A stretch of DNA of 64,000 nucleotides from Methanobacteriota archaeon. GTDB lineage: Archaea; Thermoplasmatota; Poseidoniia; Poseidoniales; Poseidoniaceae. Positions 15,609 to 53,856 of the stretch are shown here, one piece after another; positions within the stretch are counted from its first letter, which is position 1, and the number at the start of each line of letters is the position of its first letter. Location: the NCBI GenBank assembly GCA_018659375.1, contig JABJMO010000064.1, positions 3,876 through 67,875 of the forward strand. Reading direction: 5' to 3'. The position numbers and the translations under genes were made by a program. The notes under the pieces are model-generated. The model did no database searches. It saw nothing but the letters and a program-made list of their open reading frames with translations, and had not been told where the DNA came from.

Positions 15609-16721
15609 CTAGAACTCGTGGCCGTTTCTCTTTAACACGCCGTCCATAACCCCAAGAATTAGGCCACGCCATAATGACATACTCCATTGCAAAATCAAGC
15701 CTTTTAGTCCAAAGTATACTAGAATCCTGTTACCATCACTGGTTGCTAAAGCACTACGATTAACAACTCCAAGGGGACCGCGCCAAAGGATTATTTCTTG
15801 GATTATTATCATGGAAATAGAAACTATCAAAACATTCGTCTGCCACCATGTTTCAATCTCCTCCCAATTCCGCTCACTAGTAGTCAAAAATAAGTAAAAG
15901 AACGGTAGGCTACTTGCTATTGCAACTATCCATAGTGGCAATACTGCGAGAACCATAGTTGAACTGCCAATAAAATCTAGGTCTGGACCCTTCCTACGAC
16001 GTTTCGGATATTTTCTCATAATTCTAACGTGTGCCCGAGCATCTCTCAAACGCTTAGCAAGGAATCGCTTTCTACCAGATTCAGCAACATGGGCAACTAC
16101 TGCTTCAGGAGCGTAAACAATTGTCCCACCATTATCAATTAATTTCAAACTAACTTCCATATCCTCTGCATGATACCAACTAGGATGAAAACCTCCAATT
16201 TCAATTAAAGATTGACGATGAAACATTGAACAAGGTCCGTTAGCCAAACTTGTTCTTCTTGGTCGTGAACGATATTTTGATTCAATTTCTACTGAGCGTA
16301 GATGGCTAACTAGGTCATTTGCACGTTCAAATATTGTTCGCCCAGTAACTGCTACAATTTTTTCATCGCTAGTTAGTGGAGTGGCCTCGCTAAACAAATT
16401 GGAAATCCAGTTTTGTGATGGTCTAACATCTATATCGGTAATTGCTACCCATTCTCCCCGGCTATTATCCAAAGCCAATTTACGTCCTGCTGACAAACCT
16501 TCTGCATCTTGGATTAAAATATTGGTTGGGATTTCATCATCCGGTGCGTGCCATGCGAGCAATTTATCTTTCGAGCCATCTGTAGAACCGTCATCAACGG
16601 CAATAATTTCAAGTGGCCGATAGGTTTGGTTTTTTAACGCTTCTAGGCAGCCATCTACCCAATCTTTTCCATCTCTAACACATACTGTGATTGAAATTAG
16701 CGGATTCCCTAACGCAGTCAT
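15609..16721 (-). CDS. GT2-family glycosyltransferase with C-terminal TM segments
   Basis: VDDGSTDGS, DxD (TDIDV), AED motif, R..RDAR. Confidence 0.9.
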   Translation of the reverse strand: MTALGNPLISITVCVRDGKDWVDGCLEALKNQTYRPLEIIAVDDGSTDGSKDKLLAWHAPDDEIPTNILIQDAEGLSAGRKLALDNSRGEWVAITDIDVRPSQNWISNLFSEATPLTSDEKIVAVTGRTIFERANDLVSHLRSVEIESKYRSRPRRTSLANGPCSMFHRQSLIEIGGFHPSWYHAEDMEVSLKLIDNGGTIVYAPEAVVAHVAESGRKRFLAKRLRDARAHVRIMRKYPKRRRKGPDLDFIGSSTMVLAVLPLWIVAIASSLPFFYLFLTTSERNWEEIETWWQTNVLIVSISMIIIQEIILWRGPLGVVNRSALATSDGNRILVYFGLKGLILQWSMSLWRGLILGVMDGVLKRNGHEF

Positions 16722-17740
16722 CCAATCACCTCAAACTGTGATAATATATTTCGACATCTTTCTTTTACTGACAGAGAAGTAATTTGAACGACTACACCAA
16801 CCTTTGGTTGGCCATAGATAACCACGGTACCAATTGGCGCTAAGCAATGAATTATGATTGGGGCTAAGTCTTCTTCTCCTTCAACATTGATTAATGTCTT
16901 TTGATTACTTGCTAATGCTTGTTTTATTGAACTTATCATTGATGGTGAGATATGACCCGGTGGATTGTTATTGTGCAAATGATTTTGAAACTGTACAGTA
17001 GATACCTTTTCCGAATCATCTAACTCTTGCCGTTTTGTCATGCCATCGATTATCCCGATATCTGGAACTATCTCCAAATCTAACATGGTTGCCACAGATA
17101 CATCACCCACTGCCACAATAGATCCATGAATTGGTGATAGAGACTCTAGTGCTTCAGTCATTGCCACCTCTGGTAAGTCTTCAGGCCCAGGAAACAAAGA
17201 ACCCATTGGAGTTTTTAGTTCAGAATCTAGTGAGTAGTTCATCTTCAACATTTGTTGAGTTTTATCATGTTCAATCCATGGATTACCATCCGTGTCAATA
17301 ACTCCACTTCTAATTCTAGTACTACTGATAATGGCCCCTGAGTAATCAATCATATGAGGAACTTCTAGTATCGATAATTCACCCAAGCCTGAAGATTTAC
17401 GCATTCGGTTTATTTGATCACAATTACTGGTTGTTTCCGGCGTGGCTACTATCGCATCCGCTTTTTTATGCACAGGAGCTGGCCCAAATGCATCATTGAG
17501 AGTGAATATCTTGACACCGTGGTGAGATTTTTGATTCAACCAATCAAGAATTTTATGAGTTCTATCTTCATAAGATTGTATTAGGTTGGATTTTTTGCTA
17601 GCCAAGGTGTCATTAACAACATGTATTTCGACACTTTTAGACCTTGAAATAGCCACTGAAAGTAGTAATTTGTGACCGGCATGAAACCTATCAAAGGTCC
17701 CTCCAACCAAGCAACATTCAAACTTGGAACCAGTTGCCAT
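16718..17740 (-). CDS. coaD: Fused phosphopantetheine adenylyltransferase / GTP-dependent dephospho-CoA kinase (DUF359)
   Basis: N-terminal GGTFDRFHAGH and ISSTRIR; C-terminal VGDV, IIDGMTKR, NPPG.I, VEGEEDLA, YGQP..GVV. Confidence 0.88.
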   Translation of the reverse strand: MATGSKFECCLVGGTFDRFHAGHKLLLSVAISRSKSVEIHVVNDTLASKKSNLIQSYEDRTHKILDWLNQKSHHGVKIFTLNDAFGPAPVHKKADAIVATPETTSNCDQINRMRKSSGLGELSILEVPHMIDYSGAIISSTRIRSGVIDTDGNPWIEHDKTQQMLKMNYSLDSELKTPMGSLFPGPEDLPEVAMTEALESLSPIHGSIVAVGDVSVATMLDLEIVPDIGIIDGMTKRQELDDSEKVSTVQFQNHLHNNNPPGHISPSMISSIKQALASNQKTLINVEGEEDLAPIIIHCLAPIGTVVIYGQPKVGVVVQITSLSVKERCRNILSQFEVIG

Positions 17741-17824
17741 GGTTATACTGTAATCTCTTTCGCCTTTGAGTTAATCGCTAAAATTTGAGCAAGAATGGCT
17801 ATTTGTAGCCTCTAGTAAAATGAG

Positions 17825-18092
17825 CACTGTGCCCCAGCTCCTAACGGCCTATTTCATCGCAATGCTCCAAGGCCTGACCCTCGGTGCTGGGGCGTGCTGT
17901 TTGATAGGGTGGTTGTCTTGAGTTCATCCTGACGTCGCACAAGGACCCATAACCTATCAATTGGTTTACCGCTTTTGCACCAAAATTCACTCCCCTAAGG
18001 GTCATTTTGGTCTTCGATAGCGGACCGCACATTGGTATCGGACTTCATTGCAATTTCACAGTAGCTCCGCCCGATGTTGCTAGTGCGGCAAC
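17825..18092 (-). ncRNA. Putative four-hairpin box H/ACA pseudouridylation guide RNA
   Basis: Four tandem ~55-65-nt hairpins (18089-18024, 18023-17969, 17960-17901, 17893-17831). Each has an internal pocket and an apical K-turn/K-loop (GA...RUGA). ACA directly follows hairpins 3 and 4. Pockets are complementary to conserved 23S rRNA motifs. Confidence 0.82.
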
Positions 18093-18126
18093 TTCGTCTA
18101 ATCGTTATGCTAAATGAAGCCATCGT

Positions 18127-20646
18127 TCATACGAGGTTTTTGTAAAAAGATATTCCAAATAATAAGGATGCGATTTCTTCGTCTCCTTCGTTGAAGATAC
18201 TTGCAGAAAAGTCTGGCCATTCTTGGAACTCTCTGAGCAAGTACCCAACCATCGGATGAGTTCGACCAGGTGCAACATCAGTTGATTCTTCCAGACTTGA
18301 AATCATGTCGTACAAATCCATTAAAGAATCTTTAGCTTCACAGTCCGTCATCACCGGAATAAAAATTATCTCTCCACTACTTGGTATGTTTCTGGTAAAA
18401 CGCTTCGGAAAACCTGGAGGACCACAGACCTCTCCATCCAATCTAGCAATTAATGCTGGCCAAGGCAATCTATTGGCTGCCAGCCATCGCCTTCCCGCAG
18501 AACTACTTAGTTGATTCAATAACCAGTTTGATGAATCATCATACCACCATTTATACGGGAATAACTTCATGTAATTCCTCATTGAGGTACTGGAAATAAC
18601 TTCACCATTCATCAGACTTGTAACATAACTACTCCAATTGTAAAGAATTGAATCCTTCGGATGAATCATTGAAGCATTTCTCACCTTATCTAAGACTCCA
18701 AAACGGTCATTGTGTTCTACAGAATTATTTGGAAATAATGTAGCAAGTATCTCTTGAGCAAAAAGGGGACCATCTAGCCAATAATCAACCGAACGTTGAA
18801 TTAATTCAGTAAAATCATCTGGTAACTCTTTACTGGCTAACAAAATACAAGCAGAAAGATTGACCGCTGACTTTGAGTCAAGGAAATGCGACATCTGTAT
18901 TAGCAATTGATTATTTTTGACAAAATATTCAGAAATATAGATTATTGATTTCTTCTGCCAAGTTCTACTGCCTTTAGAAAAACTAGAAATTATTACTTCA
19001 ATATTGTCGATGTTTATTTCCAGTAAATCTGCCCACTTATTGGGTAGATTTCCAACGATCCTAATCCATCTGCTTTTCCTATTTCTATTTGGAGTAGCAA
19101 TCCATGCCGCCAATGGATTATGAAGTTCTATTTTATTGGCCCATTCCTCATTCCCCTCTGGATAGAAATTCATAGCCTGCCAAATCTCCTTACGATATTC
19201 AAAATTGGCTTCCTTATTTGTCAAACAATCTAAGTCCCATGATTTGCCAGAATGTGACCTGACAAGTTCTTCCGCATTTCGAGGCACTGAGTTGTGTGTA
19301 ATTGGTGAGGAAACGTCAGGACCTGTGCTAAGTTTAATGGTCAGAGAATGCTCTCTTGAAAGTTGAAGTTTTACTGTCGCTAATTCCCGCAATGATACTA
19401 ATTTTGCTAACGCTGAATTTATCTCCGTTATATCCCCATGCTTTGTCACTAGTAATCGACAATTATTTTCTCTCAAAATATACTCTAAGAAATCTAAATT
19501 CGCTAATATTGGCCAATTCCATTCAACTATGAATTCCAAATCACCCTTTGCCTTGATAAATTCAATTAGTGATTTCATACCGATTAGTGACAACCCCGAA
19601 ACTTCAATATTACCGGGGTTTTTGCTAACCCATTCACATTCACCAAAATCCCGTGAAATATCCCTTAGTAAAGCAAGTGATAATGAGTTATTTGAGTTAC
19701 TTGAGTTACTTATCAAACTCTTGGAAAGTGTTCTGTATCTCGCATTTAATTTAACAGAACTCATTCTTGGGTGTTTCATTTTTAACCAATTCGATAAGCA
19801 ACCAATGGGCAAAATTGTTTTTTGCGGTTTTATCAGATTATTGCGCATCACCACACAACCGTGAGAAAACGAATTAATCAGCATAGATGAATCTACTTTG
19901 GAAGTTAAATGTGCATGTAGTCTATTTTTCCATGAAACTGAAATGTCAGAATCTACGATCTCACCAATTTTATTGTCGCCACTTGAGAGAATCTCCGGTA
20001 AATTTTCTTCCGACATGGCAGGAGCGTCAAACCAAGTACCTGCGTTAACGTTCCATTGTTCATCACTGTTTAGTAAATTAGCTCTAACAATCGCAAAGGA
20101 ATTAGATTGCTCAAACCATCCTTCAATGGTACCGAGATTGGATTTATTTGGTGGTTGTACTTTTTCTAAAGTTATTTTAGAATACCAATTTATCGAACTA
20201 GACTTCACTGATGCCCATCTTACCCCCATGCTTCCACTGGAATCTTTTTCCATTGAATCAATATCGAGATAAGGGTTTTCTGGTAGGCTAATTAGTGATT
20301 TAGGCGGATTTTTCACATAACAAAGAATGATTATTGGGCCTTTTGATTCTAGGACAACAGCATCATGATTTTGTGGGAGATTTATAGCGTGGAGTTTGTA
20401 TAATGCAATATAATCTTCATCCAAACGCATCCTACCTTGTTTGGTTATCTTGTGTATTGCCCCCCTGATGCCACTAGATTCATTACGTGACACTAAACCT
20501 TTATTTCTTAATTGACTAAGGGCGAGTGATGCATGCGGAGTTCTGATTTTAAGCGACTTCGAAATTTGTGAAACGGAGCCACCTGAGTCGATTAACCAAC
20601 TCAATATCCTACGATGATAACTACTTCTAATCCTTTTATTGGACAA
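18127..20646 (-). CDS. Large hypothetical protein with N-terminal winged helix-turn-helix
   Basis: SVSQISKSLKIRTPHASLALSQLRNKGLVSR...ITKQG (MarR/ArsR-like wHTH); Trp-rich helical remainder. TTG start at 20646 follows AGGTGA. Confidence 0.7.
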   Translation of the reverse strand: MSNKRIRSSYHRRILSWLIDSGGSVSQISKSLKIRTPHASLALSQLRNKGLVSRNESSGIRGAIHKITKQGRMRLDEDYIALYKLHAINLPQNHDAVVLESKGPIIILCYVKNPPKSLISLPENPYLDIDSMEKDSSGSMGVRWASVKSSSINWYSKITLEKVQPPNKSNLGTIEGWFEQSNSFAIVRANLLNSDEQWNVNAGTWFDAPAMSEENLPEILSSGDNKIGEIVDSDISVSWKNRLHAHLTSKVDSSMLINSFSHGCVVMRNNLIKPQKTILPIGCLSNWLKMKHPRMSSVKLNARYRTLSKSLISNSSNSNNSLSLALLRDISRDFGECEWVSKNPGNIEVSGLSLIGMKSLIEFIKAKGDLEFIVEWNWPILANLDFLEYILRENNCRLLVTKHGDITEINSALAKLVSLRELATVKLQLSREHSLTIKLSTGPDVSSPITHNSVPRNAEELVRSHSGKSWDLDCLTNKEANFEYRKEIWQAMNFYPEGNEEWANKIELHNPLAAWIATPNRNRKSRWIRIVGNLPNKWADLLEINIDNIEVIISSFSKGSRTWQKKSIIYISEYFVKNNQLLIQMSHFLDSKSAVNLSACILLASKELPDDFTELIQRSVDYWLDGPLFAQEILATLFPNNSVEHNDRFGVLDKVRNASMIHPKDSILYNWSSYVTSLMNGEVISSTSMRNYMKLFPYKWWYDDSSNWLLNQLSSSAGRRWLAANRLPWPALIARLDGEVCGPPGFPKRFTRNIPSSGEIIFIPVMTDCEAKDSLMDLYDMISSLEESTDVAPGRTHPMVGYLLREFQEWPDFSASIFNEGDEEIASLLFGISFYKNLV

Positions 20647-20915
20647 TAATGTCACCTTTAACCACACCAACAGAAGTTTGTTTATAATTTTAGCCATTAA
20701 TCCACCTTATAGTTACATTAAGTTACGTATTTCTATTGGAAAAGTACGGAGTAACTTACAACCAGTCATGACAAGTTCACTTTTTACACTTAATTTAGTA
20801 CCTAAATGTAACGACTTAGTAAAAATGGAGCAACTATTATATCAGCGACCGGCGTCCTGTAGTTTAGTGGCAATTATCCAATGGATATGCGCTACGTGAC
20901 AAAGAGATGATATTG

Positions 20916-53781: not shown

Positions 53782-53856
53782 TGGTGCGAGCGCCGGGACT
53801 CGAACCCGGGTTCAAGCGTTGGCAACGCTCGGTGATAACCACTACACTACGCTCGC
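53782..53856 (-). tRNA. tRNA-Gly(GCC), intronless, CCA encoded
   Basis: GCGAGCG acceptor stem; anticodon arm GAGCG-TTGCCAA-CGCTT; T arm CCGGG-TTCGAGT-CCCGG; ACCA 3' end. Confidence 0.97.

What the first reader, a model, noticed from the sequence alone, without database searches (positions are those of the whole stretch)
17825..18092. Four-hairpin K-turn RNA: candidate polyvalent H/ACA guide for four functional 23S rRNA uridines
Seen in sequence (minus strand), four back-to-back hairpins, each built as lower stem / pocket / upper stem / K-turn. H1: gccgcac[UAGCAAC]aucgggc-GGA-gc..gc-AAUGA-a-guccgau[ACCAAU]gugcggu. H2: ccgcu[AUCGAAG]accaaaa-UGA-ccc..ggg-GAGUGA-a-uuuuggu[GCAAA]agcgg, then AAACCA. 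H3: uugauagg[UUAUGGGUC]cuug..CGA..GAUGA..caag[ACAACCAC]ccuaucaa-ACA. H4: gccccagc[ACCGAGGGUCA]ggccu..GGA-gc..gc-GAUGA..aggcc[GUUAGGA]gcuggggc-ACA. In H4 the ACA sits 15 nt from the top of the pocket, the canonical distance. Inference, using conserved archaeal 23S motifs recalled from memory (E. coli numbering): H4 frames UAAC-U-A-UGACCCUC (helix 69, ~U1915); H3 frames GGUUGUUCGCCCAU (A-loop, ~U2554/2555); H2 frames UUUGC-U-A-CUUCGAU (~2496, peptidyl-transferase region); H1 frames GGU-U-G-GUUGCUA (~2606). The archaeal H/ACA guides I know of have 1-3 hairpins. A single four-hairpin guide covering H69, the A-loop and the PTC would be unusual and is invisible to ORF annotation.
Basis: partly seen in the sequence, partly recalled or inferred. 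Interest (0 to 1): 0.9.

Follow-up and report, generated by a model that had tools for sequence, protein, structure and literature searches.

The report
Four-hairpin pseudouridine guide RNA
This is a small non-coding RNA of marine Group II archaea that most likely guides pseudouridine formation at four key sites of the large ribosomal RNA; it belongs to a known guide RNA family but has a fourth hairpin, one more than reported for archaea.

Summary
Window 18089-17828 (minus strand, about 262 nt) holds four consecutive hairpins, each built as lower stem, pocket, upper stem and GA/UGA K-turn or K-loop. ACA follows H3 and H4.

- **Structure:** across 46 relatives, 42 of 62 pairs show compensatory changes. 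Pocket guide bases, K-turn bases and ACA boxes are nearly invariant.
- **Distribution:** a covariance model finds one full-length copy in 147 of 151 genomes of the order. Record titles name it Ca. Poseidoniales.
- **Expression:** four metatranscriptomes from four studies each hold one 241-251 nt contig covering only this stretch.
- **Targets:** each pocket's best rRNA match is in 23S, at E. coli positions 1915 (H4), 2496 (H2), 2555 or 2554 (H3) and 2606 or 2605 (H1).
- **Proteins:** Cbf5, Nop10 and L7Ae are encoded. Gar1 was not detected.

It is not a new class. H2-H3-H4 correspond to the known three-hairpin HgcG/Pab40/Pf7/Afu4 RNA. Outgroup three-hairpin homologues match Rfam RF00064. H1 is an extra 5' hairpin found convincingly only in this order. 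H1 and H2 lack an ANA box. H1 pairs weakly with its target.

Verdict: a new four-hairpin variant of a known family.

The parts
17828..18089 (-). Whole four-hairpin H/ACA-type guide RNA, about 262 nt, from the first base of the H1 lower stem to the terminal ACA
   Evidence: Sequence. Covariation. Covariance model R1 matches full length (positions 1-278) in 147 of 151 genomes of the order. Metatranscriptome contigs cover 17829/17830/17834/17837 to 18069/18080 only.
18024..18089 (-). Hairpin H1, the order-specific extra hairpin. Lower stem 18089-18083 / 18030-24. 5' pocket 18082-76, with invariant GCAAC. Upper stem 18075-69 / 18043-37. K-turn GA 18067-66 and UGA 18047-45. 3' pocket 18036-31, with ACCA. 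No ANA box follows.
   Evidence: helices 1-4. GCAAC invariant in all 5 columns and ACCA at 1.0, 1.0, 0.98 and 1.0 identity. H1-only model R2 hits 32 of 32 genomes of the order and 2 of 119 outside, both unconvincing. ANA at 13-16 nt in 0 of 46. Best 23S match is GGU-UU-GUUGCU, at E. coli 2606.
17969..18023 (-). Hairpin H2. Lower stem 18023-19 / 17973-69. 5' pocket 18018-12 (AUCGAAG). K-turn GA 18003-02 and UGA 17989-87. 3' pocket 17978-74 (GCAAA). No canonical ANA box.
   Evidence: helices 5-7.. Best 23S match is UUGC-UA-CUUCGAUG, at E. coli 2496. It is the top hit in 9 of 9 genomes tested with their own guide and own 23S.
17898..17960 (-). Hairpin H3 with its ACA box. Lower stem 17960-53 / 17908-01. 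5' pocket 17952-44 (AUGGGUC). K-loop GA 17936-35 and UGA 17926-24. 3' pocket 17916-09 (ACAACC). ACA at 17900-17898.
   Evidence: helices 8-10. ACA at 16 nt in 46 of 46. Best 23S match is GGUUGU-UC-GCCCAU with one guide C skipped, at E. coli 2555. It is the top hit in 7 of 9 genomes.
17828..17893 (-). Hairpin H4 with the terminal ACA box. Lower stem 17893-86 / 17838-31. 5' pocket 17885-75 (GAGGGUCA). K-turn GA 17867-66 and UGA 17856-54. 3' pocket 17845-39 (GUUA). ACA at 17830-17828.
   Evidence: helices 11-13. ACA at 14-15 nt in 46 of 46. Best 23S match is UAAC-UA-UGACCCUC, at E. coli 1915 in helix 69. It is the top hit in 9 of 9 genomes.
18111..18125 (-). Conserved upstream box, CGATG followed by TTCATTTA, about 22-37 nt before the first base of H1. 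Likely a BRE/TATA promoter element.
   Evidence: In 14 of 14 upstream regions printed (13 of them with CGATG and one with CGCTG), an A/T-rich octamer stands at the same distance. Reading it as a promoter is inference from the usual archaeal -26/-27 TATA position, which I recall rather than tested.
17817..17820 (-). Short T run just after the terminal ACA. Possible oligo-T terminator.
   Evidence: T-rich stretches follow the ACA in most but not all of the 14 relatives printed. Inference only.

Best explanation
The stretch is the gene for one small RNA of about 262 nt on the minus strand. It has its own promoter and lies between a large protein gene with no Pfam match and a PPAT/DUF359 (CoA pathway) gene.

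The RNA is an archaeal box H/ACA pseudouridylation guide with four hairpins. Each hairpin carries a K-turn or K-loop, the L7Ae binding site, above a bipartite guide pocket. A Cbf5-Nop10 module would dock on each hairpin and convert the uridine held at the top of the pocket into pseudouridine.

Predicted sites, all in 23S rRNA (E. coli numbering):
- H4: U1915 in helix 69.
- H2: U2496, beside the peptidyl-transferase centre.
- H3: U2555 in the A-loop. It would be U2554 if the conserved C-A mismatch closes the upper stem and three target bases stay unpaired.
- H1: U2606. It would be U2605 if the end A-U pair frays.

H2-H3-H4 is the local form of the known three-motif HgcG/Pab40/Pf7/Afu4 RNA. H1 was added at the 5' end in the ancestor of the order Poseidoniales.

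Shown here: the structure, the conservation, the complementarity, the expression of the RNA, and three of the four partner proteins. Inferred: assembly of the particle, pseudouridine formation itself, and which U in each pocket is modified.
For: **Anatomy and covariation**
- Guide, K-turn and ACA bases are nearly invariant while the stems covary.

**Distribution and context**
- One full-length copy in 147 of 151 genomes of the order, in 22 of 22 genera. Two of the three families were not used to build the model.
- Synteny is kept. The PPAT/DUF359 gene lies downstream in 41 of 41 loci. The large protein lies upstream in 39 of 41, and the other two loci are cut contigs.
- The RNA stays at 77-95% nucleotide identity among the loci listed. 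The neighbouring proteins fall to 38-68% and 21-52% amino-acid identity.

**Targets**

| Hairpin | Arms (bp) | Sites as good expected per 4325 nt (whole-genome background) |
|---|---|---|
| H4 | 4+8 | 0.02 |
| H2 | 4+8 | 0.02 |
| H3 | 6+6 | 0.04 |
| H1 | 3+6 | 0.15 |

- In same-genus 23S plus 16S, each pocket has a single top hit, always in 23S. No site in 16S or in the 36 tRNAs scores as high.
- In 9 genomes that hold both the RNA and a 23S, the same site is top for H2 and H4 in 9 of 9 and for H3 in 7 of 9. For H1 it is sole top in 8 of 9 and tied in one.
- In one Thalassarchaeaceae genome the H3 duplex grows to 9+8 bp.
- Mapping to E. coli numbering is.

**Match to known sites**
- Pab40 motif 1 guides P. 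abyssi 23S U2588 and motif 3 guides U2016 in helix 69. Afu4 motif 2 was first proposed for the position equal to P. abyssi 2647. P. abyssi 2698 is described as frequently pseudouridylated in eukaryotes. Source: PMC2377435, Table 1 and sections 26-27.
- An offset of 92 turns these into E. coli 2496, 2555 and 2606. I derived the offset from that paper's RluE and RluB statement together with my recalled E. coli sites 2457 and 2605.

**Homology chain**
- Model R1 finds shorter relatives in 31 of 119 genomes of the phylum outside the order. In the six alignments printed, these keep the H2, H3 and H4 guide sequences but not H1.
- 16 of the 18 outgroup loci fetched match Rfam RF00064 'HgcG RNA (Pab40)' at E from 7e-20 to 3e-3.

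**Proteins:** Cbf5 (316 bits, over cut-off), Nop10 (over cut-off) and L7Ae-family proteins (two, over cut-off) are in the same genome.

**Expression**
- 14 runs on record as RNA hold about 0.43-0.47 of the sampled words of a 501-nt query, which is roughly the share the RNA makes up.
- The four runs laid, from four studies, each give one contig with no differing letter. The contigs span 17829-18069, 17837-18080, 17834-18080 and 17830-18080, with nothing on the flanks.
- One contig has letters at both ends that I recognise from memory as Illumina adapters. That fits a single cDNA running from inside H1 (its 5' pocket) to the first base of the terminal ACA, spanning H2-H4 completely.
Against: - No pseudouridine has been mapped in these uncultured archaea, so guide activity is inferred.
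- The window's own genome lacks an assembled 23S. Targets were tested on relatives' 23S.
- H1 and H2 have no ANA box 13-16 nt from the pocket: 0 of 46 each, apart from one H2 row that matched only through an N. Outgroup H2 hairpins do have ACA, AUA or AAA at 14 nt.
- In H. volcanii the ANA of the internal box was needed in vivo for the 5' stem-loop of the two-hairpin guide (PMC7075261, abstract and passages).
- The H1 3' guide arm is only 3 bp. Muller et al. found the 3' arm to be the more important one (PMC2377435, passage). The H1 match is also the one most easily got by chance (0.15 expected).
- H3 needs one unpaired guide base (C). Muller et al. rejected the equivalent A-loop assignment for Afu4 and Pf7 motif 2 on their structural rules and proposed the position equal to P. 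abyssi 2678 instead.
- In 2 of 9 genomes the H3 guide has changed (UAGGUC / ACUACC) although the A-loop has not. The canonical match is lost there and returns only if one mismatch is allowed.
- Gar1 (PF04410) was not found over the cut-off in the window's genome or in any of 61 genomes of the order. That model also misses one of the four archaeal control genomes.
- RNA contigs stop at 18080 or 18069, 9-20 nt short of the predicted 5' end at 18089. The 5' strand of the H1 lower stem is therefore not shown in RNA.
- Contigs cannot show the strand.
- Folding energy alone is not significant.
Confidence: 0.85

Rival explanations
1. Only the two ACA-bearing hairpins, H3 and H4, and perhaps H2, are active guides. 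H1 is not a pseudouridylation guide. It could be an L7Ae-binding or stabilising module. It could also act as an rRNA-folding chaperone that pairs with 23S near position 2606 without modifying it.
For: H1 has no ANA box in 0 of 46 sequences. Its 3' guide arm is 3 bp, and its match has the highest chance expectation, 0.15. Its apical loop, CUACUGUGAAAUU, is unusually conserved in most genera of the family, which hints at another contact. The internal ANA was required in vivo for the 5' stem-loop in H. volcanii (PMC7075261).
Against: GCAAC is invariant and ACCA nearly so (one column at 0.98) in 46 of 46 sequences, while the H1 stems covary. That is the pattern expected of a guide. GCAAC and ACC also stay invariant in the 27-sequence order-wide H1 alignment. 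The matched site is adjacent to, or the same as, a pseudouridine known in P. abyssi (2697) and described as frequent in eukaryotes (2698). The ACA box is dispensable for typical single stem-loop guides in vitro and in vivo (PMC7075261). Atypical guides without ACA and lower stem are active in Sulfolobus (PMC11077068).
Confidence: 0.25
2. The four hairpins are made as one precursor and then cut into separate one- or two-hairpin guide RNAs. On this reading the mature guides are ordinary in hairpin number.
For: H1 and H2 abut with no linker. Contigs cannot show processing. No northern blot or end-mapping data exist.
Against: In four metatranscriptomes from four studies, the only piece laid is a single contig that runs across all hairpin junctions (17829/37 to 18069/80). 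One contig has adapter-like letters at both ends, as expected of one cDNA of 251 nt. The homologous Pab40 RNA was verified by northern blot in P. abyssi (PMC2377435, passage). I did not see the blot itself.
Confidence: 0.07
3. The element is not an H/ACA RNA at all. It is another structured RNA, for example a cis-regulatory leader or 3' UTR element of the neighbouring genes, and the rRNA complementarity is coincidence.
For: No Rfam family reaches even E <= 10 on the window apart from three matches at E 0.33-9.2 that I judge to be chance. The folding z-score is weak.
Against: - GA/UGA K-turn signatures are invariant in all four hairpins, and ACA boxes stand at 14-16 nt.
- There are four independent top-ranking rRNA matches at sites that are pseudouridylated in other organisms.
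- A homology chain leads to Rfam HgcG/Pab40.
- The RNA has its own conserved promoter-like box.
- RNA contigs are confined to the element.
Confidence: 0.02

Closest known systems
HgcG / Pab40 / Pf7 / Afu4 three-motif H/ACA sRNA (Rfam RF00064) of Methanocaldococcus, Pyrococcus and Archaeoglobus
   Same: H2, H3 and H4 stand in the same order as motifs 1, 2 and 3. Motif 1 guides the position equal to E. coli 2496 (P. abyssi 2588). Motif 3 guides helix 69 (P. abyssi 2016). The first proposal for Afu4 motif 2 equals E. coli 2555 (PMC2377435; the offset is my inference). Each hairpin has a K-turn or K-loop. Three-hairpin relatives in the same phylum match both my model R1 and RF00064.
   Different: There is a fourth hairpin, H1, at the 5' end, found convincingly only in the order Poseidoniales. 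H1 and H2 have no ANA box. There is no linker between H1 and H2 in the window's genus. The RF00064 model does not detect the window at E <= 10, nor two Thalassarchaeaceae copies at E <= 1. I did not align the RNA directly with Pab40, Pf7 or Afu4 sequences, because none was available from a tool.
Haloferax volcanii sR-h45, a two-stem-loop H/ACA guide
   Same: It is also a multi-hairpin archaeal guide devoted to helix 69 and the peptidyl-transferase region of 23S, with K-turns. It is Cbf5-dependent (PMC7075261, abstract and passages).
   Different: sR-h45 has two stem-loops and a long spacer. Its helix-69 pocket leaves UAUG unpaired and makes two pseudouridines (1940 and 1942). H4 here pairs with the base equal to U1917, so canonically only U1915 is presented. 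The domain V site of sR-h45 (2605, between helices 90 and 93) is not one of the four sites predicted here.
Pab35 motif 2 of Pyrococcus abyssi, the guide for 23S U2697 and U2549
   Same: It guides the position equal to E. coli 2605, next to the U2606 predicted for H1 (PMC2377435).
   Different: It sits in a different, two-motif RNA. I did not test sequence relatedness to H1. The H1-only model found no convincing standalone relative in 119 genomes of the phylum outside the order.
[quoted passage not shown]
   Same: H1 and H2 also lack an ACA/ANA box. The Sulfolobus atypical guides were shown to be active (PMC11077068, passages).
   Different: H1 and H2 keep a covarying lower stem. They are embedded in a multi-hairpin RNA together with two canonical ACA hairpins. 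The crenarchaeal ones are single hairpins.

Membership tests
Archaeal box H/ACA guide sRNA | Hairpin built as lower stem, internal loop (pseudouridylation pocket), upper stem and apical loop | tested here: met
   Four such hairpins. Of 62 pairs, 42 have compensatory changes and 91.3% of cells are paired, against 31.5-42.3% in slid controls.
Archaeal box H/ACA guide sRNA | K-turn or K-loop with tandem sheared G-A pairs in the upper stem (the L7Ae site) | tested here: met
   A GA on the 5' strand and a UGA on the 3' strand are present in all four hairpins. 18 of these 20 columns are invariant in 46 sequences. Binding of L7Ae was not tested.
Archaeal box H/ACA guide sRNA | ACA (ANA) box 14-16 nt 3' of the top of the pocket | tested here: inconclusive
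   Met for H3 (ACA at 16 nt in 46 of 46) and H4 (ACA at 14-15 nt in 46 of 46). Not met for H1 (0 of 46) or H2 (0 of 46, apart from one row with an N).
Archaeal box H/ACA guide sRNA | Bipartite complementarity of the pocket to a stable RNA around an unpaired U-N | tested here: met
   Each pocket has a unique top hit in 23S. H4 4+8 bp, H2 4+8 bp, H3 6+6 bp with one guide base skipped, and H1 3+6 bp. Chance expectation is 0.02 to 0.15 per rRNA set. The hits are reproduced with own guide and own 23S in 9 genomes. H1 and H3 are non-ideal.
Archaeal box H/ACA guide sRNA | Partner proteins Cbf5, Nop10, L7Ae and Gar1 are encoded | tested here: inconclusive
   Cbf5, Nop10 and L7Ae were found over their cut-offs. 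Gar1 PF04410 was not found over the cut-off in G000 or in any of 61 genomes of the order. The model also misses one archaeal control.
Archaeal box H/ACA guide sRNA | Pseudouridine is actually present at the predicted sites and depends on the RNA | not testable with these tools
   No modification data exist for these uncultured archaea.
HgcG/Pab40 family (Rfam RF00064) | Match to the Rfam covariance model at or above the gathering score of 77 bits | tested here: not met
   No RF00064 match on window 17600-18300 at E <= 10, nor on two Thalassarchaeaceae copies at E <= 1. Three-hairpin relatives from the same phylum score 22.8-76.9 bits, all below 77.
HgcG/Pab40 family (Rfam RF00064) | Three H/ACA motifs in fixed order, with motif 1 guiding the position equal to P. 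abyssi 2588 and motif 3 guiding helix 69 (P. abyssi 2016) | tested here: met
   H2 matches E. coli 2496 and H4 matches E. coli 1915. The equivalence to P. abyssi numbering uses a constant offset of 92, which I inferred from PMC2377435. Transitive homology runs through outgroup RNAs. There is one extra hairpin upstream.

The most novel reading that the evidence does not exclude
The four-hairpin RNA could be the main or only H/ACA guide of Poseidoniales. It would assemble four Cbf5-Nop10-L7Ae modules on one RNA, possibly without a recognisable Gar1. That single particle would install the pseudouridines of helix 69, the A-loop and both sides of the peptidyl-transferase centre in one co-transcriptional pass.

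The two 5' modules would work without any ANA anchor. The abutting, coaxially stackable lower stems of H1 and H2 would replace the ACA-PUA contact. That would be a new mode of Cbf5 docking and a natural intermediate between canonical and 'atypical' box-less guides.
Probability: 0.15. Interest if true: 0.7.

Novelty: new variant of a known kind. Interest (0 to 1): 0.5.

Why it matters
Marine Group II archaea (Poseidoniales) are among the most abundant archaea of the surface ocean and remain uncultured. Almost nothing is known about their RNA modification.

What this adds:
- **An annotatable gene.** It is a conserved, expressed non-coding RNA present in 147 of 151 genomes sampled.
- **A wider architecture.** It extends the known hairpin number of archaeal H/ACA guides from 1-3 to 4.
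- **A dated step.** It shows a guide RNA gaining a module: a three-hairpin ancestor shared with Thermoplasmatota, Pyrococcus and Archaeoglobus, plus one order-specific hairpin.
- **A natural test case for the ACA box.** Two hairpins with ACA and two without sit on the same RNA.
- **Predictions.** The four predicted sites coincide with positions reported as pseudouridylated in Pyrococcus and/or eukaryotes. These are concrete, testable predictions for rRNA modification in marine Group II.

Tried and rejected
- **Rfam.** The gathering scan of the whole window found only a tRNA. The permissive scan of 17600-18300 found three matches at E 0.33-9.2 (mir-770, isrI, bxd_4), which I judge to be chance.
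- **Own 23S.** Not assembled in the window's genome, so I used relatives' rRNA.
- **Other targets.** 16S rRNA and the 36 tRNAs of the genome give no match as good as the 23S sites.
- **Alternative H3 target.** I compared the position equal to P. abyssi 2678 (about E. coli 2586), which Muller et al. favoured for Afu4/Pf7 motif 2, with the marine Group II H3 guide by eye. I saw no complementarity, and it is not among the scan's top hits.
- **Variant H3 guides** of two Thalassarchaeaceae genomes. No clearly better site appeared in 23S or in a same-order 16S. The A-loop stays best (G133) or second by half a point (10.0 against 10.5, G132), and only with one mismatch allowed.
- **Other H/ACA RNAs in the genome.**
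  - A strict descriptor found H3 but missed H4.
  - A relaxed descriptor found H3 and H4 among 22 candidates outside long ORFs. By eye, the rest are complements of tRNA genes or unconvincing.
  - The one candidate I followed (C12:882-959) is patchily conserved, often lies at contig ends, and does not fold as an H/ACA hairpin.
  - This is too weak to say the RNA is the only H/ACA guide.
- **Standalone H1 outside the order.** There were two weak hits at 24.7 bits. One lacks any GA/UGA K-turn in its fold and the other has no UGA. I rejected both.
- **Exact-pattern scan of genome contigs.** It returned mostly Ca. Poseidoniales, Thermoplasmata and Methanomassiliicoccales records plus some bacterial chance hits.
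- **Literature.**
  - I saw no paper describing a four-hairpin archaeal H/ACA RNA or any H/ACA RNA of marine Group II.
  - The term 'H/ACA' itself cannot be searched, and 'h aca' matched nothing.
  - Subscription papers such as Tang 2002, Rozhdestvensky 2003 and Blaby 2011 are not held, so the negative is limited.
Figure S1 of PMC2377435, which shows the Afu4/Pf7 motif 2 pairings, could bear on the H3 assignment.
- **RNA cover.** The flanks have no RNA cover in the four runs laid. I do not count this as evidence of absence.
- **Not used:** Complex prediction, structure prediction and protein homology searches, because no claim here needed them.
Full report
**1. What is in the sequence**

The extents are H1 18089-18024, H2 18023-17969, H3 17960-17901 and H4 17893-17831.

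Each hairpin has a lower stem, an internal loop, an upper stem and an apical K-turn-like arrangement. On the 5' strand the upper stem is followed by one or two bases and then GA. On the 3' strand a short apical stem or loop is followed by a three-base bulge ending in U, and then GA. In H3 the apical stem is a single C-G pair closing a four-base loop, which makes it a K-loop.

ACA follows H3 at 16 nt and H4 at 15 nt from the top of the pocket. H1 runs into H2 without a linker.

RNAfold returns the four hairpins. The energy is not far from shuffles (z -1.76), and the other strand folds equally well. Thermodynamics alone therefore proves nothing.

**2. Is it more than chance?**

A DNA search of 101 genomes of the same family found the stretch in 78, and in 34 of the 35 high-quality ones. 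I aligned 46 of these with MAFFT. They were the 30 loci the tool returned plus 16 more divergent ones that I fetched, and they cover 10 genera.

RNAalifold predicted 53 pairs, 36 of them with compensatory changes. My own four-hairpin structure has 62 pairs:
- 91.3% of cells are paired, against 31.5-42.3% in the six slid controls.
- 42 pairs have changes on both sides.
- 0 of 500 shuffles reach any of the five measures.

Conservation runs opposite to what a protein gene or a plain stem-loop would show. The bases predicted to pair with rRNA average 0.965 identity, with 35 of 45 invariant. The K-turn GA/UGA bases average 0.996 and the ACA boxes 1.0. Stems average 0.786 and covary, other internal columns 0.690, and the flanks 0.51.

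Frequent G-U pairs fix the strand as minus.

The neighbouring genes are kept in place but diverge much faster. The downstream PPAT-like/DUF359 protein is at 38-68% identity in 41 of 41 loci. The upstream 856-aa protein has no Pfam match and is at 21-52% in 39 of 41 loci.

**3. Distribution**

I built a covariance model (R1) from the 46 sequences. It finds exactly one full-length match in 147 of 151 genomes sampled from the order, in 56 of the 58 high-quality ones, and in 22 of 22 genera. Two families were not used for the model.

Public record titles of exact-pattern hits name the group Candidatus Poseidoniales, that is Poseidoniaceae and Thalassarchaeaceae, or marine Group II. Some Thermoplasmata and Methanomassiliicoccales records are hit too.

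**4. Expression**

A word-index search with a 501-nt query found 14 runs on record as RNA that hold 0.43-0.47 of the words, about the share the RNA makes up. I laid four of them, from four studies.

Each gives one contig with no differing letter: 17829-18069, 17837-18080, 17834-18080 and 17830-18080. Nothing lies on either flank.

One contig carries letters at both ends that I recognise from memory as Illumina adapters. The assembled molecule is therefore one cDNA of 251 nt running from inside H1 (its 5' pocket) to the first base of the terminal ACA. The read-1 adapter lies on the side that fits a minus-strand RNA in a dUTP-type library, but the library type is not known, so this is only a weak hint.

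The contigs stop 9-20 nt short of the predicted 5' end at 18089. Loss of the extreme 5' end is usual in random-primed libraries (my knowledge), but the 5' strand of the H1 lower stem is thus not seen in RNA.

A conserved box, CGATG followed by an A/T-rich octamer, lies 22-37 nt upstream of the first H1 base in 14 of 14 relatives printed, one of which reads CGCTG. A BRE/TATA promoter for a transcript starting at H1 would sit there. T-rich runs follow the last ACA in most of them.

**5. Targets**

The window's genome has no assembled 23S. I took 23S and 16S rRNA from genomes of the same genus. I scanned them for the H/ACA rule: the target reads 5'-[pairs with the 3' pocket strand]-U-N-[pairs with the 5' pocket strand]-3'.

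Each pocket has one clear best site, always in 23S.

| Hairpin | Best 23S match | Arms (bp) | Sites as good expected per 4325 nt | E. coli position |
|---|---|---|---|---|
| H4 | UAAC-UA-UGACCCUC | 4+8 | 0.02 | 1915, helix 69 |
| H2 | UUGC-UA-CUUCGAUG | 4+8 | 0.02 | 2496 |
| H3 | GGUUGU-UC-GCCCAU | 6+6, one guide C skipped | 0.04 | 2555, A-loop |
| H1 | GGU-UU-GUUGCU | 3+6 | 0.15 | 2606 |

The expected numbers come from scanning the whole genome on both strands. Alignment with E. coli rrlH gave the positions.

I then tested nine genomes that hold both the RNA and a 23S, each guide against its own rRNA. The same site is top for H2 and H4 in 9 of 9 and for H3 in 7 of 9. For H1 it is sole top in 8 of 9, and one genome has a tie.

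In one Thalassarchaeaceae genome the H3 duplex is 9+8 bp. In two others the H3 guide has drifted to UAGGUC / ACUACC while the A-loop is unchanged. There the A-loop is best (G133) or second by half a point (G132) only if one mismatch is allowed.

Neither 16S nor the 36 tRNAs offer better sites.

Two ambiguities remain:
[quoted passage not shown] If it closes the stem, three target bases (U2554, U2555, C2556) are unpaired. The most 5' unpaired U, U2554, would then be modified, by the rule shown in H. volcanii (PMC7075261).
- In H1 the terminal A-U pair could fray, which would present U2605.

**6. What is it related to?**

Model R1 also finds shorter matches in 31 of 119 genomes of the phylum outside the order. 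I fetched 18 of them.

In the six alignments printed, the H2, H3 and H4 guide sequences, K-turns and ACA boxes are kept. The H1 part of the model is deleted or replaced by a few bases. Some of the 18 have only two hairpins.

Sixteen of these 18 loci match Rfam RF00064, 'HgcG RNA (Pab40)', at E from 7e-20 to 3e-3. The best score is 76.9 bits against a gathering score of 77. The same scan finds nothing on two Thalassarchaeaceae copies at E <= 1, and the window has no RF00064 match at E <= 10.

Muller et al. 2008 (PMC2377435) describe Pab40, Pf7, Pho40 and Afu4 as RNAs with three H/ACA motifs. I read passages including Table 1, and sections 26 and 27.
- Motif 1 guides P. abyssi 23S U2588.
- Motif 3 guides U2016 in helix 69.
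- Motif 2 of Afu4 was first proposed to guide the position equal to P. abyssi 2647. The authors doubt this and prefer 2678.

The paper says Pab35 covers the sites of E. coli RluE and RluB (P. abyssi 2549 and 2697). I recall those enzymes act at E. coli 2457 and 2605. This gives an offset of 92. P. abyssi 2588, 2647 and 2698 then become E. coli 2496, 2555 and 2606. This is my inference.

The paper calls 2016 and 2588 highly conserved in eukaryotic large rRNAs. [quoted passage not shown]

So H2-H3-H4 is the Poseidoniales form of HgcG/Pab40, with the same motif order and the same sites. H1 is extra.

I built an H1-only model (R2). It hits 32 of 32 genomes of the order in the sample and 2 of 119 outside. 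Both outside hits score 24.7 bits and lack a proper K-turn. H1 is therefore an addition made in, or kept only by, this order.

**7. Departures from the canonical guide**

H1 and H2 have no ANA box 13-16 nt after the pocket. The count is 0 of 46 each, apart from one H2 row that matched only through an N. Chance would give an ANA box in about a quarter of sequences. The outgroup H2 hairpins do carry ACA, AUA or AAA at 14 nt, which I read off. The box after H2 was therefore lost in this order.

Published work is divided on how much that matters. In H. volcanii the ACA box is dispensable for a typical single stem-loop guide, but the internal ANA was needed in vivo for the 5' stem-loop of the two-hairpin RNA (PMC7075261). 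Box-less atypical guides are active in Sulfolobus (PMC11077068).

The 3-bp 3' arm of H1 is short by the rules of Muller et al..

Gar1 was not detected with PF04410 in the window's genome or in any of 61 genomes of the order. The weak hits lie inside open frames of 126-444 aa, most of them over 300 aa, and the model misses one archaeal control. Cbf5, Nop10 and L7Ae are present.

**8. Novelty and verdict**

Three papers state that archaeal H/ACA RNAs have one to three hairpins: PMC7991803, PMC11077068 and PMC2377435. I read passages only. My five full-text searches found no report of a four-hairpin archaeal guide or of any H/ACA RNA in marine Group II. The limits of those searches are given under Tried and rejected.

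The element is therefore a real, expressed, order-wide H/ACA guide RNA. It is a new four-hairpin variant of the known HgcG/Pab40 family, not a new kind of RNA.

Its novelty claim must be narrowed to three things: the fourth hairpin, the two box-less hairpins, and the lineage.

My confidence by claim:

| Claim | Confidence |
|---|---|
| It is an H/ACA guide | about 0.93 |
| H4 and H2 guide the stated sites | about 0.85 |
| H3 guides the A-loop | about 0.7 |
| H1 is an active guide at 2605/2606 | about 0.55 |

Noticed in passing
window 18064-18052 (H1 apical loop); alignment A1 columns 45-59: The apical loop of H1, CUACUGUGAAAUU, is almost invariant in most genera of the window's family. Apical loops of K-turn hairpins are usually free to vary. 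In Thalassarchaeaceae the H1 apex is longer and carries a different conserved motif, CGCCGGAG. This may be an extra binding site.
   Followed up: no
whole genome G000 and 60 other genomes of the order: Gar1 (PF04410) was not found over the curated cut-off in any of 61 genomes. Weak hits lie inside open frames of 126-444 aa, most over 300 aa. Cbf5, Nop10 and L7Ae are present in G000. Gar1 may be divergent, missed by the model, or really absent.
   Followed up: partly
window 18130-20697, minus strand: An 856-aa ORF directly upstream of the RNA has no Pfam match at E <= 0.001. It is syntenic but evolves fast, with 21-52% identity over its last 300 residues in 39 of 41 loci.
   Followed up: no
window 16721-17740, minus strand: The downstream gene is a fusion of a cytidylyltransferase-like domain (PPAT-type) with DUF359. 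It is always found just after the RNA on the same strand, in 41 of 41 loci.
   Followed up: partly
loci L243, L245, L248, L255-L257 and L259 (Thalassarchaeaceae); H3 pocket: Several genera carry a changed H3 guide, with GACUACC in place of GACAACC and UAGGUC, AAGGUC or similar in place of AUGGGUC. The A-loop target is unchanged in the two genomes that have a 23S. This could be drift, tolerance of a mismatch, or retargeting.
   Followed up: partly
loci L112, L115 and L120 (phylum outgroups): Some Thermoplasmatota homologues appear to have only two hairpins, either H2+H3 or H3+H4. Hairpin number in this RNA family therefore seems to vary from two to four across the phylum.
   Followed up: no
G000 contig C12:882-959, minus strand (locus L264): A GC-rich stretch picked up by my loose H/ACA descriptor is conserved patchily. 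In relatives it often lies at contig ends. It does not fold as an H/ACA hairpin. It may be a repeat or a sequence next to an rRNA operon.
   Followed up: partly
window 53785-53856, minus strand: One tRNA gene is the only Rfam gathering-level match in the whole window.
   Followed up: no
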